Below, one piece after another: positions 9,001-57,943 of a DNA stretch of 64,000 nucleotides (position 1 is the first letter of the stretch; each line of letters starts with the position of its first letter). The notes beneath the pieces were generated by a model. That model was not told the origin of the DNA. It ran no database searches and saw only the letters and a list, made by a program, of their open reading frames with translations. The translations under genes were made by a program, and so were the position numbers. The DNA lies in assembly GCA_040954595.2 (NCBI GenBank), contig CM082586.2, positions 2,237,124-2,301,123 on the forward strand, given 5' to 3'. This DNA comes from Balanoglossus misakiensis. Taxonomy: Eukaryota > Animalia > Hemichordata.

Positions 9001-11456
9001 TGTAGTTGTGTATGCTGCTGTTCACGTCACCATGGCAACCCAACCTACAGTTGATTGATTTCATTACACGTTTGTTGATTTTTTTTAGCCAGCAGTGCTT
9101 TCAGTGGATTACTGGGGCTGCCTTGGAAAAATACACATCGTCGTTAGGGTCAGAGGTCACCAAAGCACCATCCCTGGGGGAATGATGGGTAAAAGGGGTT
9201 TATCTCCCTGCTGTTTTTCATGAACTGAAATTAAATTGCTGTGCATTTGGAAAATGTACAGACAGCATACAAGGCTTGAAGCCAAAATAAACCAATCATA
9301 ACCATATTAATGAAAATTCAAAATTTGAATGTTCTGTTTATGAAAACATTTTTTGCAGCCATGATTTATTGATAATTTAACCAAGACAAGAGATAAAATG
9401 AGATTTTATTTATTCCTGAAAATATAGCAAGCCTGTAAATTATCAGCAAATAACCTTGTATATAAAATGCTCTATCAAATTTGCTGCCCTCCAGAAAGTC
9501 AACCATATTAGCTTTCTTTGAAAGCATCTTTTGTGTTGATGTGCATACTGTTATTGGTGATATTACACCTTATATTTAATAAGAGTCAAAGACCTTCCTG
9601 AAATGAGATATGCAGCCATTTACTTTTCCATGACCTTTGTTAACATGTTACATTAATTACTGTCAAAGGTTAATAATACTAAGTACTATGGTATTTTTGT
9701 CGTCAGAATTTTTTCATGTGATCTCTGACCCGACAACCATATTATCATGCAAAGTTGACAGGCTTGTATGCTAGGGCTATGAGTTAGTATCTGTATGTTC
9801 AGATTTGAGAGAAATGGATATATGTATACATGAAGGTCTCAGATGTTTCTCTTTAGTGCCATCAGTGTGAGACAGAGGAGAATGCAGTCACAATCAGGCA
9901 TCGATAAGGTGTTTATGTATATATACCTTTCATTAAGCTTATTTAGATGGACCAATTTAAGTTGGAAAATAAAATCATGAAAATAATGCAAAAAGTGGCA
10001 GCTCTAGAAGCTTTAAAAATTGACAATGCCAATAGATGAACTACATCTTAGTTTTGAGTCGTTACAAGAACAAGGACCTCCGATCGTTAATGGAATATGT
10101 AACCCTGGAGGGTCGACACACTTAATGCTTGATGCTTTTAAAACTTTTCTGCCAAGGGTGTCTGTAAACAACGGGGAAGCAATGTAAATGCACTTTGAAG
10201 AGTTTAATTTGCAATGAAGCTGGACTAGCAGTGGTTTTTAGTCTTTAACCGCGAGCCTCTTGTACTCTTCCTGAGGTTAGAGATGTGCGAACGGAGGTTT
10301 AATTGGTCTAGCTGGGAAAGATCAAAACCTGCCGTGACCCCATCTTTCACCTTCAGATTTGTGATGTGCCTTACCTGACCCCCCCCCCTCCTCCCCATCT
10401 TTCATAGTCATGAACTAGAATGGAAATATATTCTACATGACAAGATGTAGAAACTAGCAAAATAGGAGAGTAAGACAGATGATATAAATCTGCAAAAATC
10501 TAGGTCAAAGGGGATTAAGAAAAAAAAGCAAATAATTAAAAATAGAGAGGCTTGAAAGTAAAATACAAAAATATACATTAGCCTAACAATCCTATGGTTT
10601 GTCAAGGTACATGTACCGGTACTTATAGCCGTGGACCCAGTTTGATTATGTGTATATAAATTATTTTATTCAGTTTTTGTTTTGTTGGCTTTATTTGCAC
10701 CATTTCCATCGACATTATGGCAATGGAAGCATGTGATCCAAGTTATTGCAGGGGGAAAAACTCCATTTACTGCATTGTTAGCATCAAACAGCTTGTCTAC
10801 TTAAGAACTATATCAAGTCCATCTATCGGGTCCTTAACGAGCGCTTGAGAGAACGGAATGTGGCTTGGAACACCTTCGGTGGAAATGATGGTCAGTCTCA
10901 GGGGACCTGAGATGTATCCTGGGCTATCTTATCACATCAATATCAGCAGAGAACCTCAGATGTCCAAGTGACTATGACAAGACTCCTACAGAAGTGTTAC
11001 ATCAAGGTTGGCTCAGTGAAGCCTGTGTGTTGGTCGGTCTCAATCTCCCTCAGCAACTGTTGCTTAGCAACCATTATTTCAAAATAAAGTGCCTGTTAGA
11101 AATTTGGCAGTGTTACACAACACATGTAGGTCTTAAGTACATGGAAATTACTTTGTATACTTTGTAAATGTTCTACTTTAGCACTAAATGTTATGAAAAT
11201 ATTGAACATAATATTTCTATTGCTGAAAAGTCATTTAATGCTTGAATTTCCAAAATGTTATTAAAATTCTACGGCTTCAGGATGTTAGTTGTACAGTTAT
11301 GATATAAGTGTGTTTATCTATTAGGTCTGACAGACAATAGTAATGGGCTTGTTCATGCTTGCCTGGACAGCTGTCACAGCTGATAAATATTTTCGGTATT
11401 TAATACAATATCTTCCATGATGGACCAGGGATTTTATATTGCTGCAGTTGCATTAA

Positions 11457-11803
11457 AGGGACAAAGTCTCTCTCCAGCTGTCCCTTTTCTATTAATTATG
11501 TTTGATACAAGACACTGGTTATGTTAATGTAAATGTGGATATATAGTGAATCAATGATCAACCACACAAAACTTCCATCCCACTTGTATGATATGAGAGT
11601 AAAAACTCGCCCAAAATGAATAAATGGTAAAGAACGATTATTCATTTTGGCGAGTTTTTTCACTCTCATGTCTACAACCGGGATGGAAGGTGTGTGGTAG
11701 AACGTTGATTCACTACATATCCACATGTAGAATTACATAAATGGTGTCTTGTATCAAACATAATTCATGGAAAAAAGGGCAGTGAGAGAGAGACTTTGTC
11801 CCT
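11457..11803. mobile_element. Fully palindromic MITE, Kolobok/T2-like (TTAA TSD)
   Basis: ttaa|AGGGACAAAGTCTCTCTC...GAGAGAGACTTTGTCCCT|ttaa; the two halves are imperfect reverse complements over ~170 bp. Confidence 0.8.
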
Positions 11804-14800
11804 TTAAATGTCACTGTGTTCAAATTGAAAAAGAGGGGAAAGCCTAGTGGCCTCAATACTTGCCAGTCTGATATTGAATTATTTTTACTGTAGTACCATG
11901 GTGAAATATTCAAAAAACATGTGCAAAATAGAATCCTGAACTGTTTGCTATATCACTTGCAAAAGAGAGAATTAGAAATAAGATAATCCCTCTTTTAATT
12001 CAGTAATTGCTCCTAGGGGGTGGTAGGCATAGCGCCAGTCCTTTGATGGAAGAACTTCAAAGGAAATGGCGCAACCTCGGAGTGTAATGATGACAGTTAG
12101 ACATGAAAGAAAGAAAAAAATGCAAGAGCCCCCGTAAATACATGTACATGCCGATACTTAATGCAGCCACTCGAGATAATGTTCAACTGAGGGACGCCGC
12201 CAAACACAGTGGACATGGCTTCAGTTTCATTATGAGATTTTCAGTGAGGTACTTCGGTGGTTCTGGAGAGCAGCCTTTTAACCCGCCATAGATAACACTG
12301 ACTCGCCGAGTAACGAAAATACCATAAGCACTTATACTTCTTGTTGTGGAGTTGGGAGATATCTGGTTACCAACAAAGCTGTCCTGGAGTGTGCAAATGT
12401 GGATATGGCTTAATTGTAGCTGCTTAGCCATTCTAGCTGATATACTTTGATCTACTGCAGGTTTCAACACTTATGGCACCTCATCTCACCGTAGTATTCG
12501 TACAGCTGGGTTTTAGAAAATTTGATTTTGAACAATATAGTAAAGTTTGTAAAGTAGTCATGATTTGAGCTTACCCATTTTTGTCCTAAAAGTGGTATTA
12601 TAATACATGCAACATGTACCTTTGTAATATAATTTTAGCAGAGTTATAATGCTTGCTATCTTAAATGCATTGTGCTGTTTTGTATTAGGTTTAAACTGAA
12701 CCCCTCCACCACAATTGGTTGGTCCTGAAAATCATTGTTTTCTATAGTAAAGTTGGTAACCTCTACAGAGAGACGCAGGGGTGAAAGGGTGAGTGAAAAT
12801 GAGGGTTTAGTAAAGTATTACAGTCTGTAAAAATGTAATAGAGGACACTTGTGTGCACGTTTATCCTTTTACTGTTTTCAGAGCCCAGTTTGTAAGTCCT
12901 ATTTACTGCCATGTGTGTCTGCATGGCTAACTAAATTTAAATCCCTACTTTTGCTGTAATTTCCATACACAAATGAGCAATCAATGCAGTGACTCACCAA
13001 AATGCACAATCACATCTTTTTATATATGATTCTTTTTTTTCAAAATAAGTTGGAGCTCTTGTAAGCTATATATTATATATATATATAAAATAGAGGACCT
13101 CTGGTTGTCATTTGTGAATGCAATTTTGCAAACAAGAGGGCTGACAGCCACAGAATGCATTTGCAGTGTGTGGGAGAGTGTATAAGTCTTGCGGAGGTGG
13201 TCATGTTGAGATTGCATGGGTATGTAGGCGTAGTGAAAGAGCCAGGAAATTTTCTTGTTGTTGACATTTAACAAATGCCAGATATGTTAGACGATATACC
13301 TTCCGTAGGAGTAGAAGCACACAAATAAAGGATTATGTGTACATATAATATAATACAATACACATGTATATACATAATATAATTATATATGTGTTTGTAC
13401 ATTTAGTGTGTGTGTGTGTGCATGGGTGTGTTTGCATTAAAAAATATTACTTGTATATTAAAAAAAGAAGATGTATGTGTGACTGAGTGTTTATTACTGA
13501 AAAATTAGAAAAGGCAATGCAAAACATATTTCAGAAATTTGAAGATTGTATTTATTTGTAAAGGGACAGTGTCTTTCTTTAAAATATACAAATGTAACAT
13601 TGTATTATAATTTATAAGGCATATTTTGCCATGCAGTATACGTGGGATGGCTTATGCCGCCATTTTTTACATCTGAGCTTAAGGCAAGGTCATTTGAAGG
13701 TCATGACTTCGTTGTCTGTCATGTCAACCTGACCCTTGACTATTGGTAATCAAAGGTATAGAGTGGAATGACATTTAGAAGGAAACATTCGCCCGGTGGT
13801 GATGTAAATGCAGGGTCTGGAGGTTTTAGCTGAAATCAGTGTTTTTATCACAAGGAATTAACATGTAATTTGCATTCAGACACACTGAGAACGTAAATTT
13901 GTTATTGGAGGATGCTATATTTGCATCAATCACAGATTTAAGCCATCACCATCAAACTCAAATTTACAGGAGCACAATTCATTGTTTTGCTTGATAATTA
14001 CAAATTTTTAACAACAAAAAACGATTCTCTGCCCTTTTAAAAAAATGAAACAGTTTAATGATAATTGCTTGAAAAGAGGCTGGAGTATAAAGTGAATGAA
14101 TAGTGAATTCATAATAAAGCCATCACCATCACCCATCTATCAAAGTTACCCTGTGCCTAGCTTTGCATTCATCTATGTTCATAATTCCATGACCTGCGGA
14201 TTGAAACTATCTATTTGGAGCGTGAAGATAAAACGACTGTAGATTGTTGCATTATTTATATTGATCTGGGGCAATGTCTCTACCGCATCGATGATGAATT
14301 GCCTAGTCGGTCAGTGAACGGTAAATATCTCCAGACCCTAATGAGCTCATTGCTCTCAATAAAGCAAGGTCTCATCGCCCTGAGTTAGGCAGGTCAAATG
14401 TAGGGTACGTCGAGCTGGATATGGTTAAGTGTATCCTACGGTATAGTCTTGTTGTATATTTTTTTAAAGTCTTGTATATGTCAATATTTAGGGGGGCCTT
14501 GATTCCTATAAATATTTGGCTTGCCTGTGACATTTCACCTGGTGACAGTTCCCCGGGCGATTAAGGTCATGTTCAGAAATTGTGGAATATTTACACTCTT
14601 GATGAAATCATTGATGTGCCTTGCATTTTACAAGAAACTGAAGCAGTGATCAGTTTCAGCCCTGATTGGCTGAAAGCTGGACTGTGCACCTGGCAAAAGT
14701 TGAACTACCCAACCAGATTAGTTGTCTTAGAACCTTGGTTTTACGCAGTCAGCAAACGCGTACCAGAATCTCTCATTAGAGTCACGCACGTGATACTAAA

Positions 14801-16411: not shown

Positions 16412-16502
16412 ATTTTTGGTGATTTTCGGGTGCCTTGTTCTCAGTGTTTTTGCTACGATTAAAAATTATTATGATATCTGCAATTCGGTGCTCTTTTTTT
16501 TG
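16412..16502 (+). CDS. KCNQ: KCNQ exon (S1 end to S2 start), 91 nt
   Basis: ttacag|A TTT TTG...TTG|gtaagt; [30 protein letters not shown]. Confidence 0.95.
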
Positions 16503-19500
16503 GTAAGTGAAAACTCCAACGACTTTAACTTATGTTTGTGAGTTTGAGAAGTTCTGTAGAAAGTGGTGTTTTCTGTGTTTTGAAGACAGTTAAACAGACA
16601 ATGTTTACCATCTGTTTTGCCATGAAAGAAACCAAGAGCATAATGAAAAGGAAATGAATGATTTGTTTTATCTCTTTGCAGGAAGTGGCTATCGTCATTT
16701 GGTTTTCTATTGAATTTGTTCTACGGGTTTGGTCAGCAGGCTGTAGGAGTCGGTACCAAGGCCTTTCAGGAAGACTCAGATTCGTTAAAAGGCCTCTTTG
16801 TATTCTAGGTAAGTAGTAAACAGCTTAACAACTAACAATGGTTGAACAACAACAGTACCTTGTAGGTGGAATGGTTACAATCAATGTGCACCAAGGAGAA
16901 ACAGTTGGCTAGTCTGAAATTACGTGTAAAAAAACAGGCCATTTACTGATCATAATTAAAGTATAGAGATACAATCCAAATCTATCAAGTGGCAACTGCT
17001 TGGTTTTCATTCTTGTATGCTTGATGCGCATGTGTGTGTGTGTGTATAAATCTACAGTTTTATATTATAATGTCATTAAAAAATTAACTGTTGCTATTGA
17101 TGATTATTTTACAGATATCATAGTAATGGCTGTATCAGTTATTATCATCTCCATAGGAACCTCAGAACGAGCGTTTATAGCTTCGGCGCTTCGGGGGTTG
17201 AGGTTCCTGCAAATTTTGCGTTTAGTGAGAGTCGACAGAAGAGGGGGTACTTGGAAATTATTAGGCTCAGTTGTATGGGCCCATAGACAGGTAAGCCAGA
17301 ATTAATGATAACCATTGTGAATTTCTCAAGATGGCTGTTACACCAATCTTATAGCCATGTACATGGATTCCAGCCATGCAGTTGAAAAACAAAGTTGAAC
17401 CAGGAGATGATTAGAGGAAGAATTATGAGCTTGTCATTTCTAATGTATATTTGTCATGTCTCTATCGCTGTCTTTCCCCTCTCTCTCTATCTCACTCCCT
17501 CCTCATCTCCTCTCCTCCCTCTCTGTTTTGTTTCATTTCAGGAACTGATCACAACATGGTACATAGGCTTTCTCAGTCTCAGCGTACTGTCTTTCCTAGT
17601 CTACAATGCAGAAATGGACACAAACAAAGAAGATTTTAAAAATTTTGCCGATGCAATGTGGTGGGGTTTGGTAAGTTTTCAGCAGTATCAAATCTCAGAT
17701 CCAAAAACATGATTGGCACTAACATTTATGGAAGAGCAAACTCTTTTTTGGTTTATGGACGCCTAACAATGTTCTGTGAATTCACAGGTAACCCTGACGA
17801 CCGTAGGATACGGTGACAAAGTTCCAGAAACTTGGCTTGGAAAATTAGTAGCGGCAGTATTTTTCGTCGTCGGTATTTCTTTCTTTGCTCTACCAGCTGT
17901 AAGTATTTTCACCCGACGGAGAAAGGAAGCCACCTCTCCCTGTTGCTCCAGAAAAAAAATAAGAAAAATATAAACTTATTTCTTGACAAAAAGACGATTT
18001 CAATTGTGGAGCAACATGGGAAGTTGTTTAATATCTATATGTCCATGCATGTTGGTGCATCGTTCATCTCTTTGTCACATTTTCTCTATTTATTTTGTGC
18101 CTGTCTTTTTATTATTTTTTTGCATCACACGCCATCTCATTTCTCGCATTCCGCCCTAATTGTGTTATCAAATTCCTACTAACATTTCATCAATATCAAA
18201 GAGCTCAGTAGATATGTAAGACATGAAATTGTGACGCGTTTGCGGAGTTCAAATTCTTTCATAGTGTCATTTTAGTCACAAGTTTTGGTGCAAAATTTCC
18301 AAAATGGTGAAACTCTTTTCCCACTTGACTGAACAATGCATGGAAATTGTAGTATTGGTGACAATTTAGCGAATGATCAATTTTCAAAGTTTTTTTAAAC
18401 ATTTGAAAAGATGTAGAGAAGGATGAATAAGTCTTAAGACCCGAATCTATGTTATTCTCAGCACTGTAAAAAACACACAACTTCTACTTGCACCTTTTTT
18501 GTCATTGTGCTTTTTTATTCTAAAATCTGACTGACTTTTTGGCACCTCTTCTGGGTTAACCACTTTTTGTCTCTCTGAAGTTTTTTTGTGATACATGTTG
18601 ACTGTTTTCTTGCACTTTTTGGATGTTTTGACCACTTTTTTGAAGTCTCAGTGCAGTAATTTTTAACTTTGTTAACTGTACTGTTCTCTTCTGAATCTAA
18701 GGCCCCCACTTTCTCTGCATCATGGATCAATCTCGTTATTTTGTATGGGGTGTTGATTCCATGTTGCGGTGAAAATGGGGGTGGCAGGTTTTAAGGTTGA
18801 TAACTTTCTACTGGTATGAGCTCAGTCATCTGTTCATCTCCATATTAGGCAATTCTGGAGGGGGTACTTCATAAAAACGCATGATTCATTTGCATAGCCA
18901 TCAAAATCATCCAATCCCAGCTCAAGACCCTGGGCAAATCTGCCCAGGGTCCCCTACATCTGACTAACAATCACATCTCACTGGTGGTGGTGTTCCCCAG
19001 CTTGCATGTAGTCCCTGTTTCATTTTGCAAAAAAAGCAAAATACATTTACTAAACTGACTATAGTGACATTCTCTGTAGTTGCCTGCTTGCCAGTTTTAG
19101 AAAACTTTCTCTATTAATATAGTGTGCATCTCGAAAACCAATTAGTCTTACACTTTTTCTCATATTTTGCTAAAGGTTTACCTTCAGATAAATCTCTCTT
19201 AGAATCAATGAAATTTATTAGTCACAGTACAAAATTTTGAATGAGAGTGATAGCGATTGGTACAGGAAATGATTTATACTTTCGGCAAGCTTGATCAAAA
19301 TTCAGACATCATGAATCAATTTTGTATACTTAAAAAAATATGCCATTTTTATAGGCATTCAAGAAGTTTTCAATATATTTTCATATGATTTGTACAATAA
19401 AGTTTAAGAAAAAACCCATATCAGAACAGATTCCAGTTCAAGATAACTCACTTCAAAGTGGTTTGATATTAGATCTTTCACAATTTAGTTGAAGATTTTG

Positions 19501-22500
19501 TCATGAAAAAGTATTTACTCTGAAAACATAAAGCATGCGGAATAAAAGAGAATGTCATTTTTTGTCCATGCCACTGATTGGAATTAATTTTACTGTAGGG
19601 TATTCTAGGCTCAGGGTTTGCCCTTAAGGTACAACAACAACAGCGTCAAAAACATTTCTTACGAAGACGCCATCCAGCAGCTGAGCTCATACAGGTTAGT
19701 AAACTCCCTGTCGGCGGAGAAACCCCCACCGTATTCAGTCGCTTTTTGTACTTTCTAATCTAGGGTATTCTGGGCTCAGGTTTTGCCCTAAAAGTTCAGC
19801 AACAACAACGTCAAAAACATTTCTTACGAAGACGCCATCCCGCTGCCCAACTTATCCAGGTAGGTAATGTGAACCCAAGATTTAGGTTTCGAGAAAAATT
19901 CCCTCGTCTGCGAAATAAATCATTGTACATGTCAAACATGTCTATAGTGGCCAGTCAAGGAACTTTCCTAAATTGGCCTTTATAGACAGGTCAGTTAATG
20001 TTCATGTTAAATGCACAGGGACTGTAACAAAGTGGCCACTATATAGAGGTGGCCACTTACACAGGTTTGACTGTATGCAAATCCTACCAAGGCCTTGAGA
20101 CAAGGGAATTTTTCAGGCTACTGGTCTTGTGTTTTCGTGGAAATGGGTTAGGTAAGTGAGGTTCTCTGCAGATGCTAAAAAATCCAACTGTGATTAGATT
20201 TACAAATCTAGTATCTGTACAGTTTGCTTGTAATTTCTTTATTGTCTTTCCTTAATTGAAATTCATGAAGCATCTAATTGTAGCTTGTGTATAAACCATC
20301 CAGCATCTCAATGGTTTCTTAACAACATAAATACATGTAGGTATCAGATCAATGCTATTTTCAAGAAGTGTGCATTCACATTTTCGAATTTCTGTTCCTT
20401 TTTTATAGTGCGTATGGCGTTGCTATGCAGCAGATCCATGTTCGATGTCAGTAGCTACATGGAAACCCCATTTGAGACCAGTTAGTAGTCCCACCACGTA
20501 AGTACTCACACGACGCTGGTTCAGCCAGACCCCGACAGCACCCTTGTATTAATGAAAGTTTCATTATTTGTGTTCCTGGTTTATTTGTAGCGGTACATGA
20601 TAACGTTTTAAGCATATCAGTATACTCCCATGTATGTGTATTGACGGCCATTTAAGATAAGTCCAGACCCCTTGGTGACTCCATGGTGACCTATGACATC
20701 ATTCAGAAGTTTTCTTCTGAGTCTAATATGGGTTAAAGGTACTTGTATATGGTCTACATTAAGAGGCATGTCTTTCAAAGTGAGCTAATAATCATGTGGT
20801 CATGAAACACTAATAAGTTTTGCATCCTCAAAATATCTGGCCAAATTTCTAGTCTTTAGTGAAATCTGCAGCTATAATCATTCAGGTGTTTGTCTACTCT
20901 TAAGGGTGTACAGATGGTTAAGTTGTAAGGGGTGAAGTTTTTTTTATTGTGGATTTATGGACTCTCTTTTATAAGTGTTATTAAAAAGCTGTATTTAAAT
21001 TATAGAGTTATCATAATTTTGAAATATAATGCTGTGTCAGAATTTCGTTCGCTAATGGCAGAAGTAGTTCAGTATTGTCAGTTTAAACCTGTGAGACGTT
21101 CAGTGTTCTCATCTGCTGTCTGATTGGCTGATGACACTCTTGTGACATTCCATCAGCCAATGAATGTCAAGTTCTCATGTATGTGCAGCAAAGTATAGAG
21201 GAGAAATGAAATCAGTGAAAACTAAACAGATCGTTCCATCATACAGTGTGGCTCAGTAATTGTGATTTGTTCCAAACTTTAACTTTTGTTTGGAAATGAA
21301 AAGTCTTGCAGAAAGTGTGCTAAAATTTTCCACGTTTTTATTTCGGCCCAAATTTAGTGTTGATATCGAGCTCCTCTGTAACACTCTCTGTTTTCTTTTG
21401 TTTTAACATTCTGTATATTTCAGGTACCGAACATCAGTTCTTCTTCGGTAACTATAATAACATACACTGTAATCACTCTAACAATTCAACATTGTCTATA
21501 GTCCCACACACCGTGCAATCTGTGATGTCGTTCCCTTATAGACCTCTCTATCGCAGAGCGACATCCAATGACGTCTTCCGTTTTATTTTGTCTTGGATGT
21601 GGCTCTCATGATAGTGTCATGCGTGTACCTGCCTGCAATATCGTAGACATCAAAACGTAAACTTAGATGTAGATAGTCATTATCTCTCCTTTTTTGCACA
21701 GTGTGTTCTGCACGATGAAAAAGTTTAGCATTGTGTCGATATATGTCATTTTTTGTCTCAAGTTTGTGTATACTGTATTGGACAATGTGCATCTCACAGC
21801 CGATAGGGCCAAAACGAATTTTCGTTGTGTTTCTGAATTTTTCACTGACTTGAAAGCATGGCATTCGATCAGTTATGGAATCTGGGCTGTTGATTTTAAT
21901 TTTAAAAAACATGCATCCATACCCCTGGTAGACTGAAAGCGCTTTAAGGATGTACGATCAGTAAAATTGAAAGTATTCATTAATTCAAAATTTAAGAGAA
22001 AAATAAAGGAACACTATTAAAGTCAGCTTACAAATCTCCTGAGAATTGACGATTATTTACTTTGTACTGTTTCTGTTATTCAGGCCTGACGTTACAAGGT
22101 AAGCCTCAACAACAAACAAACACTGGCAAAATTCTTCATGTGTTCAAAAAAAAATAAGCAGGATACGAAAAAGACAAGAGAGAGAATTAAGTTCCTCGCA
22201 TGCAGATTGGCCTGTCCCGGCAGTACAGGTGCAAAGTGAAGCAATATGTAAATTGAAGCAGAATATGTAAATTGGAACTGAATCTGGAAATTGAAGCCAA
22301 CATAAAAAGCATGTACATTGTTCTTGTTGTAACTTTTGCCCATCAAAGTTTTATCCAAAAACTGACTGCGTTTATTTGTCTTTAAGATACCAATCACAAC
22401 GATCACCAGTCAAGACAGGCAACTCCTTTCCTCGGTGAGAAAAATAGAAATTTATAAACTCGAAAGTGTTCATGGTGTCTTTACACGACAGATATGAAAA

Positions 22501-25500
22501 CGAACAAACAAACATGAGGATTAGGAAGGGTTTGAGGAGCTCGACATGTAATTTAGAACTGTCAGACATCCCATAGCGTACAAACATCGCTGTCCTTATA
22601 GGACATGCACAGTGGTGATAAAAGTGAATTGCACATGCCATGGAAAAGTTCACATTGAATATGGGATGAAGTTATCAGCTGTGTTACCATAGCAACCACC
22701 ACTGACCTTTCGTCACAGTACTTTGAAGAATATTTCCCACACACACTTCCTTGTTGTCTGTGCATATGTCAGGCATATTTTCTGAAACTATTATATGCTT
22801 ATATATGTACCGAAGCAGTACTGGTTCCGAATTCAATAATTCCCAGATGCATTTCACCAATTCCCATGAAATACATAAATGCACCCTGTGATGATGTGAA
22901 TACGGACAGTTATTGGCATCATTTCTCAGTCATTTACACGTGGTAGATAGCAGAGAATTACATTTTGTCTTAATTGGTTGTATTAGTAGAGTGATTACAG
23001 TGTGAATGTACAAATTATTTGTCTCTAAGTTCTTCATATCAGACAACCAAATACCTATATATCATCATGATGAAAAAGCCTCACATTTGATCTCTGTTCT
23101 TTTTTTTTCATCCCCTATGATGTAAATAGTTCCATCTGAATATTACATGTTTGGTTGTGCATGTGTGCTTTCTTGCAGACAACGGACGAATCCTAGTCTC
23201 ATCTCACGTCTTTCAACAAAAAGAAAAATTGGAAGCCCCATGGTTAAGAGGCACAATTTACAACATGATCCGCTGAAGAAGTCGCACAGCCACGACTTGG
23301 AGGTGGACGGCATCAGCAAGAGTTCACTCAGTCTCCACGACGGTCACGGACCATTATCACGCAATCAGGACTCTTTGTATTCGAAAAATCGTGACGAGGG
23401 TGAGTTGTCATGGTTTTTGTGGATCGAGTGAGGCTGTTTGGTCGGGCATCGATTGTTGTGTCGTTTGTCGTACGACTGAAATTGAATGTGAAAGGTAGTA
23501 TTTCGAGTGAATGCAACATTGCTTGCCCAGATGTTGTGATGTTTGCTAAATGCTTTGTGTTCATTTGGGAGTTTTTTTGCTAATTGTTTGAATTTAATCA
23601 TCATTCCATGCCACACACCCCTCCCCTTCAATCCAACAGCATGTTCAGATCATGTGACCATCTACCAGGTCTTGTTTTTATTCAAGTAATAGGAAAGCAT
23701 TACATCCTGATTTTAATCAGTTCTCATGCATAAGCAGACATATCTAGCAAGTCCCACTTCCCACAATGCAACATCGGACAGGTAAATTTGAATGGAAATG
23801 AATAAATTAGTAACTTAATAGCAATTTTATAGTCAGCGTTGTTGGAATCATGTAGTGGGTCACTTGATGTTGCTATAGCAACAGAGTGTGTACAGAATCA
23901 GTGGATTAGATAATGAGAATACACAAGAGTTTGCGTAAGTATTTTATTAGCGTTGTGCTAAAGGTAAAAAGGTTCCGCCAAACACTGCGCTCTTCAGAGT
24001 AATCACAGTTTGAAAAGCTTCTTGAACTGTGCACTTAGAGTTTGCAAGTTACCTGGAAAACTTCAAGTCCCACTTGAAGTAACACAGACCAGTCTTTGCC
24101 AGTCAGAAATGAAATTGTTTGCACAAAATCGGTGATCAATATAATTACTACAAAAATGTGGCCCATAATTCTGAAGGTATATTGTCTTTCTCCTTTGACA
24201 CTTGGACATGTTTTTTATTAAAAAGGGTTGCAATCACTTCTACTATGCATCTACCCATAAATGGTTAAAAAAAAGACCAATAATATGTCAGTAGTATTGC
24301 ATTTCAATTTATAGTAAACTCAAATATGCTAGTATCACCTCCATGTAATTACCATTTCCGTCACCCATCACCAAAACATGTCATACACAATCCTCCATGC
24401 TTAGCTTCCCCTTTGTTCCACACCGAGCAAAATTTCAGCCAAAGATTTCTTTTTCTTCATTTATTTACGTTGTCAAGATGTTTCAAATGGAAGCGGAGGT
24501 AATTACTATTCCATCGGTGTGTTGTGGCCAGTGCACGTGCATGTGCACACACACACACATCACACAAGGAGGCACATTTTTTTCATTCTTTGCATGTTCA
24601 TTGTGCGGTGTTCATGCAGTCCTTCACTGATTTCTGTCTAACCCTGTATGCGTCTTTGGTGATCATTTTCATAATAGGATGGTGTCTGTGTTTGTTCGTT
24701 TCTCTGTCTGGATCCACAAATAAATCTGTGAAACTTAAACCCTTTCACCACCATGGTTTGGTCCAAATCCATTCTTTCAGTGCTTTAGTGGTACCTCTTT
24801 GGAGGGAACTGGGGGTGAAAGGGTTAATTTCTGTCTTTCTCTCGCAACACTTTTTCTTTTTTCCAGGTTCTTGCAAATTTATGGTGTTCACTCTGATTAT
24901 CTGTATTCCTCTATTGTTCAATTCTTTGAAGGGATTTGACACAAGTAACCTGATTGGCCAGAATGTGGCCCTCCCTATGACATGAGCCAATGGTGGCTGA
25001 TTTTCAAAGGCAACAATTTTTCTTGCCATTGATTGGATAAACTGGGCTGCATGAAGTAGACACTAGCCAATCAGGTTTCTTGACATAAACATAGATTTCT
25101 TTTCAACCGGACATTTCTCATATATGGGTGCTTCATGACAATCATCTTTTCACCGTATCTCTTATTCAAGTCTGTGGCGAAATAAATTTGATATTTTGTC
25201 ACTTTCACTAAGATTTTCTGCTCAGAAGTGGTAAAGAAATGAACTTAAATATGTTGCGTGCAGGATGAAAGTAAAGTGACGTACATAATTTCCATTTGTA
25301 GCTCTGTTAGTCAGTTTTCAACAAAGTCTCTTGACATGTAAACGTAAAACGCTTGCACTAATCGAAGAATGGTTATACTAGCTGGTCATATGCGGTCAAT
25401 GCAAGGTCCAGATCCAAGGTGTATTAAAATAATCAAATGCATGCTAACATGGCAAAAATGGTGACATTATACTGTCTTAAATATAAAATCAAAATAATCC

Positions 25501-27092
25501 TTTCCCAAATTTGTGACCACTGTTTGGTTGTAGCATCGCAGGGGTTTCTGAAGTTAATTAAGCGCCGTGTCGTAGATCACGAGATAGCAGGCATGGCAGT
25601 CAACTTCAGTGGCACCTGTGGTGTTTTCACGCAAATTGTTCTGTAGAAATCTCACTCGCTCAATTCTGTTATATTCAACCCAACAGACAGCATAAAAGAG
25701 ATTGACGAACCAGCCCAGGTGTACACGGCCCCCGAGCCAGTATTGCAAACGTCTGAGTGGTTTGTGACGCAGAACATAGCAGCTCTCAGAAGATTGCTGG
25801 GTAAGTGAAGTCAAGTTTGTAGTCATATTTTCATGAATCTACAGTATTTCCACATCCCCCTCCAAAAGAAATATAATACTGTAAGCATGTTCGAACTGAT
25901 GATTCTTTAAATTCTGATGACAGACAATAAAAATTCTCACTTTTTCAATTTATTTCCTTTCAGATGATGACGAAACACTTGGACTGACAAGACTTACAGA
26001 GCCTCACAAAAATGCTATTCGCGCTGTCCGAAAAATAAAATATTTTGTTGCTCGAAGGAAATTTAAAGAGGCATTCCGGCCGTACGATGTCAAAGACGTC
26101 ATTGAGCAATACTCAGCTGGCGCTGCTGAAATGCAATGTCGACTGAAAGCCATCCAGTCAAGGTGAGCCTCGTACACTGCAGCTTTCCTGTTATGAATCC
26201 CTTTGGATTTCACAATTTCACTGTCAAAATGTGGTGCAACATTTGTATCAATTTCGCACATTTTTCCTATTTTCCCCTTAATTTTAGACCAAGTGGACAT
26301 AATTATCCATTGCCTGCAGGTCTTGATCAAAATTTTAGAAAAAAATATGGTATTTGAGTTAATTTTGTGAAAAATAATGACAAGTTGACTATGGTCTTGA
26401 AAGGGTTAAAAGTATACCGCATCTGTGCAGAATTAGCCACAGTTGCCATGGAAAGATGAAATCTAGCCAATCACAGACAACTAAACATTATGCTTTTTGT
26501 TCCTTTCTATAGGTTGGATGAAATCCTTGGCCGGCAGGAAGGCAAAAACGGATACGAGTTGTACAACACCAAGGTTCCCATGATCACCAGGGTGGTGAAA
26601 ATCGAAAAGAAGGTCAACATGGTTGACCGGAAGTTGGACATGTTGATTGAACTTTACCGCGACGAGCGGCAGGAGAAACTCAAGCAGCAACAACAGAGCG
26701 ATAATCAGGGTGATCAGAGCGGGCAGGATAGCGACAAGGAGAGCAAGGACCCGCCGGCCCAGACGTCCCGAAATAGACGACTCGGCCGTGCCAGGAAGTT
26801 ATCCAGAGTGAAATCAGAGGGCTATCGCGCGCACGAAAATAACTCTGAACGACCGGAGCGAACCGGTCCCCGAGTTGAGTTCCGCAAGTTATCCGATTCC
26901 CAGCCGAGTATTCCTTCATCTGTGGACCTGGATAACATACAGAATGTGGCAAACACTCTCTCGCAGCCCTCGATTACGATGGAGGGCCAGAGCGAGTCGA
27001 GTATGTCGCTACCGACCACGAACGTTAAAGGAGTCGGGCGGGGGCAGAGCATTCCGGACTACGAGAATGCAATTGATGACACACGAGTCTAA
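16412..27092 (+). CDS. KCNQ: KCNQ/Kv7-family voltage-gated potassium channel (multi-exon, 5'-partial; overall span)
   Basis: Spliced GT-AG exons with consistent phases encode S1-S6, S4 '[31 protein letters not shown]', pore 'TTVGYGD', S6 '[18 protein letters not shown]', helix A 'LIQCVWRCY', helix B/C '[15 protein letters not shown]' and a helix D coiled coil. Stop TAA at 27090-27092. Exact paralog not assignable. Confidence 0.97.
16682..16808 (+). CDS. KCNQ: KCNQ exon (S2, S2-S3 linker), 127 nt
   Basis: ttgcag|GAA...CTA G|gtaagt; [42 protein letters not shown]. Confidence 0.96.
17115..17290 (+). CDS. KCNQ: KCNQ exon (S3-S4, S4-S5 linker), 176 nt
   Basis: ttacag|AT...CAG|gtaagc; [59 protein letters not shown]. 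Confidence 0.97.
17542..17670 (+). CDS. KCNQ: KCNQ exon (S5, turret, pore helix), 129 nt
   Basis: tttcag|GAA...TTG|gtaagt; [43 protein letters not shown]. Confidence 0.97.
17788..17898 (+). CDS. KCNQ: KCNQ exon (selectivity filter, S6), 111 nt
   Basis: tcacag|GTA...GCT|gtaagt; [37 protein letters not shown]. Confidence 0.97.
19599..19694 (+). CDS. KCNQ: KCNQ S6-gate/helix-A exon, copy a (96 nt; probably mutually exclusive with copy b)
   Basis: ctgtag|GGT...CAG|gttagt; [32 protein letters not shown]. Confidence 0.92.
19764..19859 (+). CDS. KCNQ: KCNQ S6-gate/helix-A exon, copy b (96 nt; probably mutually exclusive with copy a)
   Basis: atctag|GGT...CAG|gtaggt; [32 protein letters not shown]. 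Confidence 0.92.
19928..20073. mobile_element. Tc1/mariner pogo/Tigger-type MITE (degenerate)
   Basis: ta|catgtcaaacatgtctatagtggcc...ggtggccacttacacaggtttgactg|ta; CAGTCAAACCTGT-type TIR with TA flanks. Confidence 0.7.
20409..20497 (+). CDS. KCNQ: KCNQ exon (rest of helix A / IQ motif), 89 nt
   Basis: ttatag|TGC...AC|gtaagt; [29 protein letters not shown], completing IQxxWR. Confidence 0.95.
21424..21447 (+). CDS. KCNQ: Candidate KCNQ microexon, 24 nt (phase 2-2)
   Basis: Long pyrimidine tract, tttcag|GTACCGAACATCAGTTCTTCTTCG|gtaact; open in the KCNQ frame (YRTSVLL). Confidence 0.5.
22084..22098 (+). CDS. KCNQ: Candidate KCNQ microexon, 15 nt (phase 2-2)
   Basis: tttgtactgtttctgttattcag|GCCTGACGTTACAAG|gtaagc; strong donor, open in frame (PDVT). 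Confidence 0.65.
23179..23399 (+). CDS. KCNQ: KCNQ helix A-B linker exon, 221 nt
   Basis: ttgcag|A CAA...GAG G|gtgagt; [25 protein letters not shown]...SKNRDE; bridges phase 2 to phase 1 as the flanking exons require. Confidence 0.88.
24478..24498 (+). CDS. KCNQ: Candidate KCNQ microexon, 21 nt (phase 1-1)
   Basis: tttctttttcttcatttatttacgttgtcaag|ATGTTTCAAATGGAAGCGGAG|gtaatt; in frame DVSNGSG. Confidence 0.55.
24735..24827. mobile_element. ~90 bp piggyBac-like MITE (TTAA/CCC termini); dispersed family
   Basis: ttaa(a)ccctttcaccaccatggtttggtcc...gggggtgaaagggttaa; related copies near 7824-7901, 12697-12792, 31328-31380, 58138-58226 and 58788-58873. Confidence 0.7.
25687..25800 (+). CDS. KCNQ: Candidate KCNQ cassette exon, 114 nt (phase 1-1)
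   Basis: caacag|AC AGC...CTG G|gtaagt; open frame [38 protein letters not shown]. Confidence 0.65.
25964..26162 (+). CDS. KCNQ: KCNQ exon (helix B and helix C), 199 nt
   Basis: tttcag|AT...AG|gtgagc; [66 protein letters not shown]. Confidence 0.96.
26513..27092 (+). CDS. KCNQ: KCNQ terminal coding exon (helix D assembly coil and tail)
   Basis: ctatag|G TTG GAT...; LDEILGRQ...[25 protein letters not shown]...IDDTRV*; matches ORF 26490..27092. Confidence 0.93.
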
Positions 27093-27518
27093 CAGAGGTC
27101 ATATGATCTGAAACAGCACTACCCAGGGAGCCATATGTGGTCCAAATATCTTGCCAAAAGTAATACAAGTGTAGAGACAGCATTGCAAGGTTTACAACCG
27201 ATCGCGCCCCTGCCATTCCCCTAGAATGGAATAACCTGTTATTCATTGTTGTGATGGACTGGTTTATTTTACAGGAAATAGGGGAGTGGTGGGGTTTACA
27301 CTCAAGTCGGGAAAAGTACAGGTATCTTCCTGAAGTAATTTTTTAATGATAACAAACCCCAAAATCACATTTTATTCAGAGTGCGAATAGTGTGGGTGCG
27401 TTTCTCAATGACTGAAGAACTGTATGTGTGCTGAAAGATTGTTAAAAGTTTTGGAAAACAACATCATTTTTTTTTCACTTTCATCCAAATTTAACACTGA
27501 ATATATCACCCATTCTTA

Positions 27519-28702
27519 GGGACCGTTCAGTTTTTACGGCAGGGGGGGGGCTGGCAAGTTTGTGTCATCGGTTCTCAAAATCAGGCCGACCCCCCCTTCA
27601 CCCAGCCCCAAAAAATGATGACCCCCCCTTTGACAGACCCAAAAATATGATGACCCCCCCCCCACGCCGAAAACATTCGCCGTCCTGATCCTATGTATAC
27701 ACTGTATGCAATAAAGGGAATGGGGCTCCTCACCCCTCAATTATAAATTTCTTAAAGTAATTGAATTATTTAATAATATCGTTGCAATAAAGAAATCTAT
27801 TAACAAAATAAAATGACAAGTCACTACAATAGTTGGTAGAATTGGTAAAACAAGAAAAGTGGCGGGGGTGGGCGTGGGAGGGGGTGTCCCCCTCCGACAT
27901 AAGAAAAATTTGTAAAACACGGTGCTCAAAGTTGCATTTTAATGAACTCAAAAGCAAATAAAGTCAATGTTAGGCAGGACGAATTTTGATTTTGCCACTC
28001 CACTCAAAGTAAGCATAGGGGTGGGGTGGGAATAAGTCTGCCCTGGTACACTATACAAACCAGCGGATAAATGATATGATATGTTGCATAGAATGTAGGG
28101 GGTGGGTGTGGGAGGGGGTGTCCCCCTCCCACATAAGAAAATTTTGTAAAATATGTAGCTCAAAGTTGCATTTTTATGAACTCAAAAGCAAATTCATCTC
28201 AACGTTTGGGAGGACCAATTTTATTTTTTGCCATTCCACTCAAAGTTAGAAGATTTGGCGTCATCTTCGTCATGACATCATTTATAAAACTTCCAGCATA
28301 TAGAAGATGCAGCACGAAACTATCAGTTATGCAAAATGGTTTAAACGTTATTCTCCTTTATGTATTAACTTTGTTAAATATTATCATCAGTGGGTTTGGG
28401 GTGGCAAGCACTCTGCCCTGGTAGAATAGTCAAACCAGCAAAAATCGATATGTTGCAAAGAATGTAGGGGGTGGGTGTGGGAGGGGGTGTCCCCACTCCC
28501 ACGTTAGAAAATTTTGTAAAATAAAGGGCGCGAAACTGCAATTTTGAGGACTCAAAAGCAAAAGTTTGGTGGCAAAAGTATGTGACCCCCCCCTAAACGT
28601 TTAAAAAAAACAGATGACCCCCCCCTTTTGGACTTCAAAATTCAAGTGACCCCCCCCTGGATTTTGCCGGCCCCCCCCCGGCCGTAAAAACTGAACGGTC
28701 CC
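27519..28702. mobile_element. Non-autonomous PIF/Harbinger-type DNA transposon (1184 bp) in the presumed KCNQ 3' UTR
   Basis: Perfect 22-bp TIR GGGACCGTTCAGTTTTTACGGC / GCCGTAAAAACTGAACGGTCCC followed by G/C runs; TTA duplicated on both flanks (27516-27518, 28703-28705); three internal G-rich repeats near 27864, 28098 and 28467; no transposase ORF. Confidence 0.9.
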
Positions 28703-31327
28703 TTAGTATCACTCTTCACAGTCAAAAAACATCAGGGTTTTATTTTGGAATATTCAACTTTCACTGAAAAAAAACAAAACTAAGATAAGCAAACTTAGTA
28801 CTCTACTGTAATAACGAGGCTTCTTGTCAGATAATTAGTTTATTATAGTAAACACTACATGAGAAACAAACGCTGTATCATATGCCAATTTTAGAAATAT
28901 TGTATTTATTTCGTTTTGTACCGCACCAGAAACTACAAGTTGTTTAGGAATTTTTTTGCTACATATTGTAATGTTCACCATTGCATCGACTTTCAAACGT
29001 GCAATTTTCTTATATTTTCATGTGACAAGTTTACTGATTTTTGGCAAAATGCATACCGGCCGAAGTTCCTTACAAGCACGACTCAGTGCGTAGTAAATGT
29101 TTTTAAAAATTCAGAGAATTTCCCATATGTAGTCTGCACAAGACATTATCCAGCATTCAGCTTTTGAAAGGTCATACTGATGTCAAATTATTCATGTTTT
29201 ATACACATATATGCTCTATAATGTTGTAAATAATATCACTCTATAGGGCGTGGCTAGTTTTTACAATTTATATGTTAACGAGTCACTTAATCAGGTTATG
29301 ATTTTTGAAGGAATAAGTTATTCTTTTAATACATACGTACATACACACACACACACACATGAATGCCCCTATATACATCCACACACACGGATATTCATGC
29401 AATGCACACAAATCCATGTACGCTGTATCAACACATAGACAACAATAGATTAATAGACCAGTAGCTTATACATTTTTAATTTTGCCAGGTTTGGCCACTC
29501 CAGTGGCAATACTTCTCCACTTCAGACTTCCGGTGATGGTTACGGCAGAATTTACAAAAAAAAATCTTTACATTTGGAATTTTAAGTATCTGTACATTCT
29601 GTTTCTTCTGTTGCTTAGTAACCTATGTCAAAGAGCATCCAGATTCTGTGGAGACTCACAGTGTGTGATAGTAGGAGAGGATGATTTCCTTTTTAATTGT
29701 GGAGATGGGTTTTCTTTCTATCTCCATATATTGACTGTGCCCACATTCCAAAATGCTTCTCACGGAAATATTTCAAAGTACATGTTTAGCTTGTCAGGTT
29801 GTCTGTTGTTCAACAGTTAAAAAGAAACATGTTTTAAGAATTGCAGAGTGTAATTTCCAGAAGAAAATAAGAGAGAAAGGACACACGAATACAATTTTTA
29901 CAAAAAATGACAAGTTCACATTTGTTTCATCTTTCATCAAGTATTGCGTACAATTCATTTGATACTAATGTGCTCTGAAAAAAATAGTTGATAAATTCTG
30001 CAATATCGTGTCACCTAAAAAAAACAGCAACTCTCTCTCTCTGCTTCTCCAGTGCATACTTTTCAGTAGAGAGGCATTTTATTTCTCTTTACAGACTTTG
30101 TCATTTAGAAGTGCTTTTAACAATGATCTTTCTGCTTGATGCGTCCGACTAAGGGGCCAAAGATGGCCAGTTCTTTGCGAGAAACGGTGTTGCTACGGTG
30201 ACGGTGATTATTAAGTTAATTTTTTAGATAGTTTAATAATAGCAATTAGTTGAGTTGAGGTTTCTGAAGATTTACTGATAGTGGCCGGGTTTTATTAGTG
30301 CAGAAGTGGTTTGCATTTATTTGGTTATATTAAGGTAAATAGGGTGTTTTATGAAATATAAAGTTTCAATATTATGCGTCCCCCTACACCACATCGACTG
30401 CCCTAAAGCTGTTTCGACCCTCATTTCATCAACTGCAAATGGTTCTATGCATTGAAATGATTTCCTTGTCTGGTCTTGATATTTATCTAACTTGTTTGAA
30501 CTTCCTTGCAAGTTAGAGTTCCATTGACAGAATCTTAACAGAAGCATAAACGTAGAAAATGCACCAAGACACACGAACTAAGACACTCACTGACGAAACA
30601 TACATTCTCATGCACTCACACCTGCGTACGGACACAGTGAAAATTTAAAAAAAAATTCAGAATTTGAATATTGTATGAGTGGAATTTAACTAGAATATTA
30701 CGGCTGAATGCTGCCAATTTATGAAGTTGTACAGATTTGTTCATATTTTGACCAATCAGTAACACTATTTCTCATTATGTAATTTTTCTCTTCAAAGTAG
30801 TATTTGAAATGTAAATTTCATAGAGTAATCGTCAAATCAAGGCAGGCCTTGGACCAGGCAGCAAATTATGATATATCCTCCCATATCTCCCAGTTCTTAG
30901 AATTTAGCCAACTTAGGGATAAAAAAATCAATAAAAAGATTTCCCAGTTTTTAGGCAAATAAATACAGATTCTGGCCTGTGCAAGAGTTGGGTCTCCTTT
31001 ATTTCATGTCTTTGTACATTTTGTGGTCATTTCTGGAAGCACATGTCATTTTCTGTCATTTATAGTGTGTTTATAGGGGCAAAAAAAAGCAATAGGTAGC
31101 AGGCGATTGACTCCTTAATGTAGCCTGCCCACCCCCATTTGCTCCACAAAGTATTCCGACCCACCTTAGTCAAACTGTTAGGACTGCACTTATTTCTGGG
31201 GGAAAACTGGGGTGGACAGGTTGCTGTGTAAGTAATTTTTCTATCAATTTCTGGTGTATCTCATTTCACTACATACTCCAGCTCATTCTAGCTTGAACAC
31301 TTGAGAGGACTGAAGGAGACATGTTTT

Positions 31328-56558: not shown

Positions 56559-57779
56559 TCTTTCACCACATAATATATACATATTAGTTCACAATATAAT
56601 AATTTCAGTGATTAAGTTGCACCTGTCATATTTTGGCTGAACATTCTAATCTCTTGTACCATGTGTAAAGTAACATAAACACTGGAAAAATAGACCAGTG
56701 AGGGTATTCTTACACCTAGTTAGGAGTTTAAAACGAGAGCTTCTTAATTCAGAAAATAAACCTATTCTGGTATATATATGTACATGTAGTTAAAATATAC
56801 TTAATTTGCATAAGTTGGTAACTTATAATATTGCCCATTGAGGGCAGCAGAAAAGATTACTGACTCCATGTTATTACTCATTTACATGACCTGATTATTA
56901 CACTCTCTTTTTAACTTGTCCTTCAGCACAAAGTATAGAATTACTCTATACCAGTCGTACATCATGTAAATAGTTCATTCATAGCATAGCATGGTAGGGT
57001 TTGACTGTAAACAAAGGTCAAAATACTTCAAAAATGGGGCAGTGACTTGTTAAGCAGTAAACAGCAATGAACCATCTTGGAGACCTGTACCCTGTGTTTA
57101 CCAATACCGATGTGAAATTGAGACACTTAGCAGCCAATTGTTCTGGCCTTTAAATTTCCTACAATATACTTTAAAAGATATAAATTTTGAAAAACATATC
57201 ACAAAATGTGACTTTAGTGCATAGAATGACAAAGCAAATCTACTGCAGGATTGGTAAATTGACAGAAATATACAAAAATAAACATTTTTGAAAATACAAG
57301 CTTGAAAAAAGAACAGCATTACAAATACATACGATAGTGTGGTAATCTGAAAATTATAGGTGTTAACAAGCATTATAAAGATTCCACTAAACAGTAAGAC
57401 AGTTGAATGCAAGTTCAAAAATATAAATGCTTGATACATTTCCAAGGGCTCGGGCCAAGGGATGAATTTATCAAGTTAGAAATATTACTAACATCTACAA
57501 CATTGTTTGTGAGGAATTTTACATCACAATAATATCTCTCAAGATATATGAAGCCATGGTTATTATACTTTACATTTTAATGATGGTTTTATACAAATAT
57601 TACCTGCTGGATATAAACATTGCTTTTCGTGCTTCACAAGTTTTATTAAAAAGTTCACCAGTTTATGGGTAATGACAAGAAGCCATACACCCCTTGTATT
57701 CTACAGTGGTATACTCCACCCAGGATCAAATGGACCATATCATTGATACTTTGGGGGGTGACGGGGTCGAGGTAAATGA

Positions 57780-57943
57780 TCAAAACACCACAGCACCTGA
57801 GCCTTTTTTTCTAGTGTCGCTGTACGCAGACAATCTGTCGTTCTTTTTCATAGCGACCATGAATTGATTTCCCAGTTCTTGTCTGGTGACCACTTTGTGT
57901 CCGCAGTTTTCAAGTCTTTCCAATATGGCAGCAGGTACCTTCT
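57780..57943 (-). CDS. GGT7: GGT7-like terminal coding exon
   Basis: KVPAAILERLENCGHKVV...LSAYSDTRKKGSGAVVF*; TGA at 57782-57780. Confidence 0.92.

What the first reader, a model, noticed from the sequence alone, without database searches (positions are those of the whole stretch)
19599..19859. Tandemly duplicated KCNQ gate/calmodulin-helix exon: a near-silent mutually exclusive pair differing by one charge (E/Q)
Seen: two intact 96-nt phase-0 exons, each with its own AG and GT. They encode [28 protein letters not shown][E/Q]LIQ and differ at 14 nt: 12 synonymous codon changes plus GAG/CAA. The intron between them is 69 nt, while every other intron traced in the two genes is at least 105 nt. 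Known: this segment is the S6 gate, the basic post-S6 PIP2-contacting stretch and the start of the helix-A IQ motif that binds calmodulin in Kv7 channels; short intervening introns can enforce mutually exclusive splicing sterically. Inference: both copies are old and under strong purifying selection, and splicing toggles a single charge two residues before the IQ. This could tune CaM/Ca2+ or PIP2 regulation. Including both would keep the frame but duplicate the gate, so exclusion cannot rely on NMD. I do not recall such a pair in vertebrate KCNQ genes.
Basis: partly seen in the sequence, partly recalled or inferred. Interest (0 to 1): 0.82.

Follow-up and report, generated by a model that had tools for sequence, protein, structure and literature searches.

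The report
One-charge exon swap in acorn-worm KCNQ
An acorn-worm gene for a KCNQ (M-current type) potassium channel carries two intact, very old copies of the exon for the channel gate and the start of its calmodulin-binding helix, differing by one residue (glutamate or glutamine), and likely splices in one or the other to make two channel versions that are predicted to differ subtly in calmodulin or lipid regulation.

Summary
Observation confirmed. Two 96-nt phase-0 exons, each with AG/GT, lie 69 nt apart and differ at 14 nt: 12 synonymous codons plus GAG/CAA; dN/dS is about 0.013. The host is an acorn worm, sister to Ptychodera flava. The pair is old: 13 of 13 P. flava RefSeq isoforms carry one copy (9 E, 4 Q, none both), four equal-length pairs differ only by E381Q, and an old Saccoglossus model holds both copies in the same E-then-Q order. 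That puts it in the enteropneust ancestor, more than 370 My ago. Echinoderm proteins show one form per species. No RNA runs were listed, so splicing in this species is inferred. Steric exclusion fits the anatomy but is untested. The toggled site aligns to KCNQ1 S373, KCNQ2 338 and KCNQ3 E377, but is also the exon's most variable column across animals, so the effect may be small. It is a new member of a known kind, closest to the Nav 5A/5N Asp/Asn swap. The scan noted a similar pair in Lingula KCNQ (e1-10670670); I also saw duplicated pore/S6 exons in amphioxus and schistosome KCNQ.

The parts
17788..17898 (+). Upstream common exon (selectivity filter and most of S6), ends in phase 0
   Evidence: tblastn of hemichordate KCNQ proteins; GT/AG and frame check
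18807..18833 (+). Upstream-intron stretch complementary to the 3' end and 5' splice site of copy a (12-nt perfect core at 18814-18825); candidate masking element, weak lead
   Evidence: duplex -27.0 kcal/mol with copy a versus -13.8 with copy b; 72 of 2000 shuffles and 1 of 30 real control stretches reach 12 nt; found after the fact, conservation untested
19599..19694 (+). Exon copy a: S6 gate, basic post-S6 stretch, start of helix A, Glu form
   Evidence: matches KCNQ chains at E about 1e-10; identical peptide in P. flava, Glandiceps and Saccoglossus E models
19695..19763 (+). 69-nt intervening intron; shortest of 23 introns traced; no YTNAY branch-like motif except one 5 nt from the acceptor; every A at least 18 nt from the acceptor lies at most 43 nt from the donor
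19764..19859 (+). Exon copy b: same segment, Gln form
   Evidence: identical peptide in 4 P. flava isoforms and in the second copy of the old Saccoglossus model
20409..20497 (+). Downstream common exon (rest of helix A and TW helix)
16412..27092 (+). Traced part of the host KCNQ gene (KCNQ2-5-type; N-terminal exon not found)
   Evidence: 91% identity to P. flava over 638 aa; P. flava orthologue scores 536 bits to KCNQ5, 467 to KCNQ4, 462 to KCNQ2, 450 to KCNQ1, 435 to KCNQ3

Best explanation
The acorn-worm KCNQ gene carries a tandemly duplicated exon for the S6 gate and the start of calmodulin-binding helix A, with Glu in the first copy and Gln in the second, and likely includes one copy per message to make two equal-length channel subunits that are predicted to differ modestly in calmodulin or PIP2 coupling. 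Shown: both copies are intact and under purifying selection, and relatives have the same pair. Inferred from annotation of P. flava: either-or use. Inferred from a tree and a published date: the duplication arose once in the enteropneust ancestor, over 370 My ago; Q is probably the older residue because sea urchins and sea cucumbers have Q. Inferred from anatomy: the 69-nt intron puts any usable branch point of copy b within about 45-55 nt of copy a's donor, so the two copies probably cannot be joined. Untested: that the charge at this helix-A position, on or beside the calmodulin C-lobe interface and near the hinge that flips on PIP2 binding, tunes gating or trafficking.
For:: 12 of 13 changed codons synonymous, dN/dS about 0.013. 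P. flava isoforms from one contig are 9 E, 4 Q, 0 both of 13; pairs X1/X2, X8/X9, X10/X11 and X12/X13 differ only by E381Q. Those models also contain micro-exons of about 8 codons whose matches are in the window at 21425 and 24474, which suggests they rest on RNA evidence (inference). Saccoglossus model XP_006820358.1 has both copies, E then Q; its newer model XP_077868035.1 has only E; tree (Saccoglossus,(Glandiceps,(Ptychodera,window))). PMC11175523 (passages) places Harrimaniidae outside a ptychoderid-spengelid split of more than 370 mya; branch-point geometry. PMC7969005 and PMC5740500 (passages) give a steric threshold of about 50 nt. One search aligns the site to KCNQ1 373, KCNQ2 338 and KCNQ3 E377. 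PMC6359610 (table passages) lists KCNQ1 S373P and KCNQ2 A337G and L339R as helix-A/C-lobe disease variants. PMC7518097 (passages) shows that changes at the adjacent A337 alter PIP2 modulation.
Against: No read-level splice evidence from this species or its relatives was available. RefSeq isoforms are predictions. The only Glandiceps model and the newer Saccoglossus model show E alone. Position 29 is the most variable column of the exon: 9 different residues among 21 unique peptides, 2.75 bits. S373P is a proline, so it says little about the side chain. A search for papers naming at least 3 of calmodulin, KCNQ, S373, G338, E377, N352 found 2 papers, neither on this site by title or abstract. 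The 50-nt threshold is from mammals; C. elegans splices introns of about 40 nt (PMC4165533 passages), and I could not measure acorn-worm minimum intron size or see whether the short intron is conserved.
Confidence: 0.6

Rival explanations
1. The pair is real and mutually exclusive, but E versus Q hardly matters for the protein. The two copies are kept because they carry different splicing signals, for example giving cell-type control of exon inclusion, and the residue difference rides along.
For: The site tolerates G, S, N, E, T, A, Q, M and I across animals. Differences cluster in the last codons beside the donor (codons 26-31 all differ) while 10 central codons are identical at the DNA level (permutation p about 0.02, after the fact), which hints at nucleotide-level constraint or gene conversion.
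Against: E in the first copy and Q in the second are the same in this species and in Saccoglossus, and both residues persist in Ptychodera, across more than 370 My, although synonymous sites between the copies have diverged (dS about 1.07). A single Asp/Asn swap carries the functional effect in Nav1.1 exons 5A/5N (PMC3196094 abstract).
Confidence: 0.22
2. The isoforms are real and tuned, but exclusion is enforced by RNA pairing or splicing factors rather than by steric clash; the 69-nt intron is spliceable and a little double inclusion occurs.
For: An upstream-intron stretch at 18807-18833 pairs with the 3' end and donor of copy a (-27.0 kcal/mol) much better than with copy b (-13.8). RNA structure controls SCN9A exons 5a/5b (PMC12772994 passages). 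An old Saccoglossus model joins the two copies, though that is a prediction.
Against: The pairing is marginal: 72 of 2000 shuffles and 1 of 30 real control stretches reach a 12-nt complement, and its core holds an 8-nt palindrome seen 5 times in the window. The 69-nt intron shows no unusual pairing with either flank (38 and 39 of 100 shuffles as strong).
Confidence: 0.15
3. One copy is an unused pseudo-exon, or the duplication is an assembly artefact.
For: A tree-shrew KCNQ3 model (ELW57131.1) shows two identical tandem copies of this same exon, probably an artefact of that kind. No reads were seen here.
Against: The copies differ at 14 nt, almost all silently; flanking introns are unalike; two other acorn-worm genera have both residues in independent assemblies.
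Confidence: 0.03

Closest known systems
Nav channel exons 5A/5N (SCN1A, 2A, 3A, 8A, 9A) (PMC3196094 abstract; PMC12772994 passages)
   Same: Ancient tandem duplicated exons in a voltage-gated channel, used either-or, nearly identical in protein, with an acid-to-amide swap; in Nav1.1 the Asp-to-Asn change alone reproduces the functional difference.
   Different: Different channel family and site (S3-S4 linker, not gate and calmodulin helix); Nav1.1 copies differ at three residues, these at one; the Nav case has measured function and developmental regulation, this has neither.
[quoted passage not shown]
   Same: Same class: homologous either-or exons, enriched in ion channels and repeatedly evolved in different lineages; the Cacophony event likewise falls in a partner-binding helix.
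   Different: No KCNQ occurrence in the held supplement of PMC8373072 or in the main text of PMC9741552. Copies here differ by 1 of 32 residues.
Human KCNQ2 mutually exclusive cluster 1817 in Hatje et al. 2017 (PMC5740500 supplements)
   Same: Mutually exclusive exons in a KCNQ gene.
   Different: A different, C-terminal exon with strongly diverged copies; not the gate/helix A exon.
OGDH exons 4a/4b and other sterically enforced pairs (PMC7969005 passages)
   Same: Frame-neutral pair with a short intervening intron and candidate branch points under about 50 nt from the donor.
   Different: Branch points are mapped in OGDH and are distant from the acceptor; here they are only inferred from the tiny intron.

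Membership tests
Tandem duplicated exon substitution (homologous mutually exclusive exons) | Two adjacent homologous exons of like length and phase with intact splice sites | tested here: met
Tandem duplicated exon substitution (homologous mutually exclusive exons) | Both copies under purifying selection and conserved in relatives | tested here: met
   dN/dS about 0.013; E and Q forms in Ptychodera and Saccoglossus proteins
Tandem duplicated exon substitution (homologous mutually exclusive exons) | Each copy is spliced singly between the common exons (bridging junction reads) | tested here: inconclusive
   No runs listed. Indirect: 13 of 13 P. flava RefSeq isoforms have exactly one copy
Tandem duplicated exon substitution (homologous mutually exclusive exons) | No joining of the two copies in transcripts | tested here: inconclusive
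   0 of 13 P. flava isoforms join them; 1 of 2 Saccoglossus models (the older prediction) does; no reads
Sterically enforced mutually exclusive pair | Donor-to-branch-point distance below the spliceosome's limit (about 50 nt in mammals) | tested here: inconclusive
   All A residues at least 18 nt from the acceptor are at most 43 nt from the donor; one A at 56 nt is 13 nt from the acceptor. Branch point not mapped; limit unknown for hemichordates
Frameshift/NMD-enforced mutually exclusive pair | Double inclusion shifts the frame or brings a stop | tested here: not met
   a+b form is open, 675 aa versus 643 aa over the traced exons
KCNQ (Kv7) channel, KCNQ2-5 type | Six-transmembrane Kv core with GYGD filter plus KCNQ C-terminal domain; orthology to hemichordate KCNQ | tested here: met
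   orthologues carry PF00520 and PF03520. Subfamily rests on best score to KCNQ5; no KCNQ1 row was in my tree

The most novel reading that the evidence does not exclude
The pore-to-helix-A stretch of KCNQ is a repeated target of independent exon duplication across invertebrates: gate/helix A in acorn worms and, by another note of this scan, Lingula; filter/S6 in amphioxus and schistosomes. The acorn-worm pair would be the minimal case: one charge at the KCNQ3-E377/KCNQ2-338/KCNQ1-S373 site, held for over 370 My, lets one gene build mixed E/Q tetramers with graded calmodulin/PIP2 coupling, doing by splicing part of what vertebrates do with KCNQ2/KCNQ3 heteromers, and marking an unstudied tuning residue in human Kv7 channels.
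Probability: 0.3. Interest if true: 0.72.

Novelty: new member of a known kind. Interest (0 to 1): 0.5.

Why it matters
Evolution has run a one-residue experiment at the joint between the KCNQ gate and its calmodulin-binding helix and kept both outcomes for hundreds of millions of years. The same position differs among human Kv7 paralogues (Glu in KCNQ3, Asn in KCNQ5, Ser in KCNQ1) and sits between residues mutated in epilepsy and long-QT syndrome, yet my search found no study of its side chain. The pair gives a direct, cheap test of whether this charge tunes calcium/calmodulin or PIP2 control. The class of event is well known, and the isoforms already stand unremarked in RefSeq for P. flava, which limits the surprise.

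Tried and rejected
No whole genome is held for this window. No RNA holder was listed for 17110-27100; this is no evidence on expression, and no reads could be laid. Metagenome scan (best 80 of 128 loci kept, many redundant, flanks up to 2.5 kb): all 80 have one copy of the segment and none has the acorn-worm peptide, so no relative's DNA was obtained and gene conversion, intron-size conservation and RNA-pairing conservation could not be tested. Search of 50% representatives: no acorn-worm transcript fragment and no further double-copy protein among the new hits; the multi-stretch hits checked were intron read-throughs or other repeats. Spider T/N variation at the same site was considered as a parallel pair and dropped: N and T track species or separate scaffolds, with no equal-length T/N pair from one locus among the members listed. 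The tree-shrew KCNQ3 tandem copy is identical in protein and was set aside as a likely artefact. Docking/selector pairing of the 69-nt intron with either flank is no better than shuffles. The first tree used a window model with two wrong exon ends and is superseded. No structure or complex prediction was run: it would not resolve a Glu/Gln difference. Literature searches gave no paper describing this pair by title or abstract; the library lacks most subscription papers. The supplement held for PMC9741552 was one short file without KCNQ and may omit its event tables, including the Drosophila list; the supplements of bioRxiv 10.1101/2025.09.21.677649, which hold invertebrate KCNQ sequences, are closed.

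Full report
Observation. The window holds two 96-nt exons at 19599-19694 (a) and 19764-19859 (b), each with AG before and GT after, in the same frame and 69 nt apart. They differ at 14 nt in 13 codons; 12 are synonymous and one is GAG (Glu) against CAA (Gln) at codon 29 of 32. Counting sites gives dS about 1.07, dN about 0.014 and a ratio of about 0.013; the chance of at most one replacement among 14 neutral changes is 8.5e-8. Similarity ends within about 11 nt of the exon edges. The common exons end at 17898 and begin at 20409. Forms with a, with b, with both and with neither all stay open over the traced exons (643, 643, 675 and 611 aa), so a frameshift cannot enforce exclusion. The 69-nt intron is the shortest of 23 traced: 10 other KCNQ introns of 117-2681 nt and 12 introns of about 104-917 nt in the neighbouring gene, traced by eye.

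Host and gene. The best full-length relatives of the S4 exon are acorn-worm KCNQ proteins. The spliced window model is 91% identical to Ptychodera flava, 84% to Saccoglossus kowalevskii, 83% to Glandiceps talaboti and 54-56% to echinoderms. A quick tree of 8 rows joins it to Ptychodera (support 99) inside (Saccoglossus,(Glandiceps,(Ptychodera,window))). The P. flava orthologue scores highest against KCNQ5 among solved structures. Invertebrates mostly have one gene of each KCNQ subfamily (bioRxiv 10.1101/2025.09.21.677649, passages). The exon aligns to human KCNQ1 345-376, KCNQ2 310-341 and KCNQ3 349-380, so the toggled residue is KCNQ1 373, KCNQ2 338 and KCNQ3 377; the printed alignments show Glu in KCNQ3 and Asn in KCNQ5. 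Sturgeon KCNQ2 has Gly; Gly in human KCNQ2 is recalled.

Conservation and use. All 13 members of the P. flava cluster are RefSeq isoforms from one contig. Nine carry the E peptide, four the Q peptide and none both. Four equal-length pairs differ only by E381Q. RefSeq models are read from the genome (established practice, recalled), so P. flava must have both exons. These isoforms also vary in micro-exons of about 8 codons, with matches in the window at 21425 and 24474; such exons are hard to predict without RNA data, so the models are probably evidence-based (inference). An older Saccoglossus model, XP_006820358.1, contains both copies in tandem, E then Q, exactly as in the window; the newer model has E only; the single Glandiceps model has E. 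Harrimaniidae branch outside Ptychoderidae plus Spengelidae, whose split is given as more than 370 mya (PMC11175523, passages), so shared descent dates the pair to at least that age. Among 34 echinoderm proteins, 31 carry the segment, each once: 16 Met, 14 Gln and 1 aberrant model, with Met in starfish and a brittle star and Gln in sea urchins and sea cucumbers. Of 419 proteins held, 327 carried the segment and 2 had it twice: the Saccoglossus model and a tree-shrew KCNQ3 model with identical copies. The pair looks acorn-worm-specific on present evidence, which is annotation-based. No RNA runs were listed, so I have no junction reads.

How exclusion likely works. Copy b has no YTNAY branch-like motif except one 5 nt from the acceptor, while copy a has one at 21 nt. 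Every adenosine at least 18 nt from b's acceptor lies at most 43 nt from a's donor; one further A is at 56 nt, 13 nt from the acceptor. A donor-to-branch distance under about 50 nt is the proposed steric limit in mammals (PMC7969005 and PMC5740500, passages). That fits, but the limit is lower in animals with tiny introns (about 40-nt introns in C. elegans; PMC4165533, passages) and is unknown for acorn worms. If the intron is retained, its acceptor TAG is in frame and stops the protein. I found no special pairing of the short intron with its flanks. A 12-nt perfect complement to the 3' end of copy a lies at 18814-18825 and extends over a's donor (-27.0 kcal/mol against -13.8 for b). It is marginal (72 of 2000 shuffles; 1 of 30 real stretches), found after the fact, and may help choose between copies; it is a lead only. 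Ten central codons are identical in DNA (permutation p about 0.02), a hint of gene conversion or a shared splicing element.

What the swap may do. The residue lies at the start of helix A. A review table lists KCNQ1 A371T, A372D, S373P and L374H and KCNQ2 A337G and L339R as helix-A variants at the calmodulin C-lobe interface (PMC6359610, table passages). Changes at KCNQ2 A337, the preceding residue, cut current and alter PIP2 modulation, and the authors place it near the pivot of the helix A-B/calmodulin flip (PMC7518097, passages). The proximal part of helix A bends when calcium loads the C-lobe (PMC7072864, passages). A charge change here could plausibly shift these couplings. Against a large effect, this is the most variable column of the exon: 9 residues among 21 unique peptides. 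For an effect of some size, the E-first, Q-second arrangement is the same in this species and Saccoglossus while silent sites between the copies have diverged.

Comparison with what is known. This belongs by anatomy and conservation to tandem duplicated exon substitutions, which are enriched and convergent in voltage-gated channels (PMC9741552, section 16 and passages). The closest working model is Nav1.1 exons 5A/5N, where a single Asp-to-Asn change reproduces the functional difference (PMC3196094, abstract). KCNQ does not occur in the held supplement of the human catalogue (PMC8373072). Human KCNQ2 has a mutually exclusive cluster in a different, C-terminal exon (PMC5740500, supplements). 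Five searches listed no paper on this pair; I saw listings and abstract starts only, and subscription papers are mostly missing.

Wider pattern. The scan holds an unreviewed note of a gate/helix A pair in Lingula KCNQ whose copies cannot both fit the frame (e1-10670670). I did not retrieve Lingula sequence. In 73 of 73 metagenome loci with an acceptor before this segment the exon runs on past IQ (80 loci in all, the other 7 lacking that acceptor), so a longer, non-triplet exon in Lingula and an independent origin are plausible. Amphioxus isoforms and three schistosome models show duplication of the preceding filter/S6 exon. Together these suggest that this part of KCNQ has been duplicated several times.

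Verdict. The feature is real, old and very probably used either-or (about 0.9). The full account with steric exclusion and functional tuning is less sure (0.6). It is a new member of a known kind. Interest 0.5: a clean, testable one-charge switch at a medically relevant joint of Kv7 channels, in a class of event that specialists already expect in ion channels.

Noticed in passing
proteins P0136/P0145, P0033/P0158, P0148/P0155, P0021/P0163 and others (Branchiostoma RefSeq isoforms): Seven of seven equal-length isoform pairs compared differ at 9-10 residues confined to the preceding filter/S6 exon, including TT versus LT just before the GYGD filter. This looks like a second, more divergent mutually exclusive pair in amphioxus KCNQ, seen in more than one Branchiostoma assembly.
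   Followed up: partly
proteins P0354, P0355, P0362 (Schistosoma curassoni, Trichobilharzia szidati, Schistosoma mansoni models): Three models hold two diverged tandem copies of the filter/S6 exon, while other schistosome models hold one: a likely independent duplicated pair in blood flukes.
   Followed up: partly
loci L007-L080: In all 73 loci with an acceptor AG directly before the GILG segment, the reading runs on past IQ with no intron. The 96-nt exon unit therefore seems not to exist in these animals (protostome-like peptides), so the Lingula pair noted by the scan probably arose separately.
   Followed up: partly
window 21425-21448 and 24474-24497: Matches to micro-exons that are alternatively included in P. 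flava isoforms, in the linker between helices A and B.
   Followed up: partly
window 32470-56310: A satellite array of about 24 kb with 87-88-nt units at 95-97% match, in blocks that switch strand near 38.6 kb. It separates the KCNQ gene from the next gene.
   Followed up: no
window 57779-62635, minus strand: A gamma-glutamyltransferase-like gene (named from recalled motifs, not searched), at least 13 exons.
   Followed up: no
window 11453-11807 and 27512-28709: A 355-nt near-palindrome (81%) and a 1.2-kb element with 46-nt terminal inverted repeats and internal repeats: likely non-autonomous DNA transposons.
   Followed up: no
protein P0182 (Tupaia chinensis KCNQ3, ELW57131.1): Two identical tandem copies of the same 32-residue exon in one model; probably an assembly or annotation artefact, but it shows that a mammal has the same exon boundaries.
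   Followed up: no
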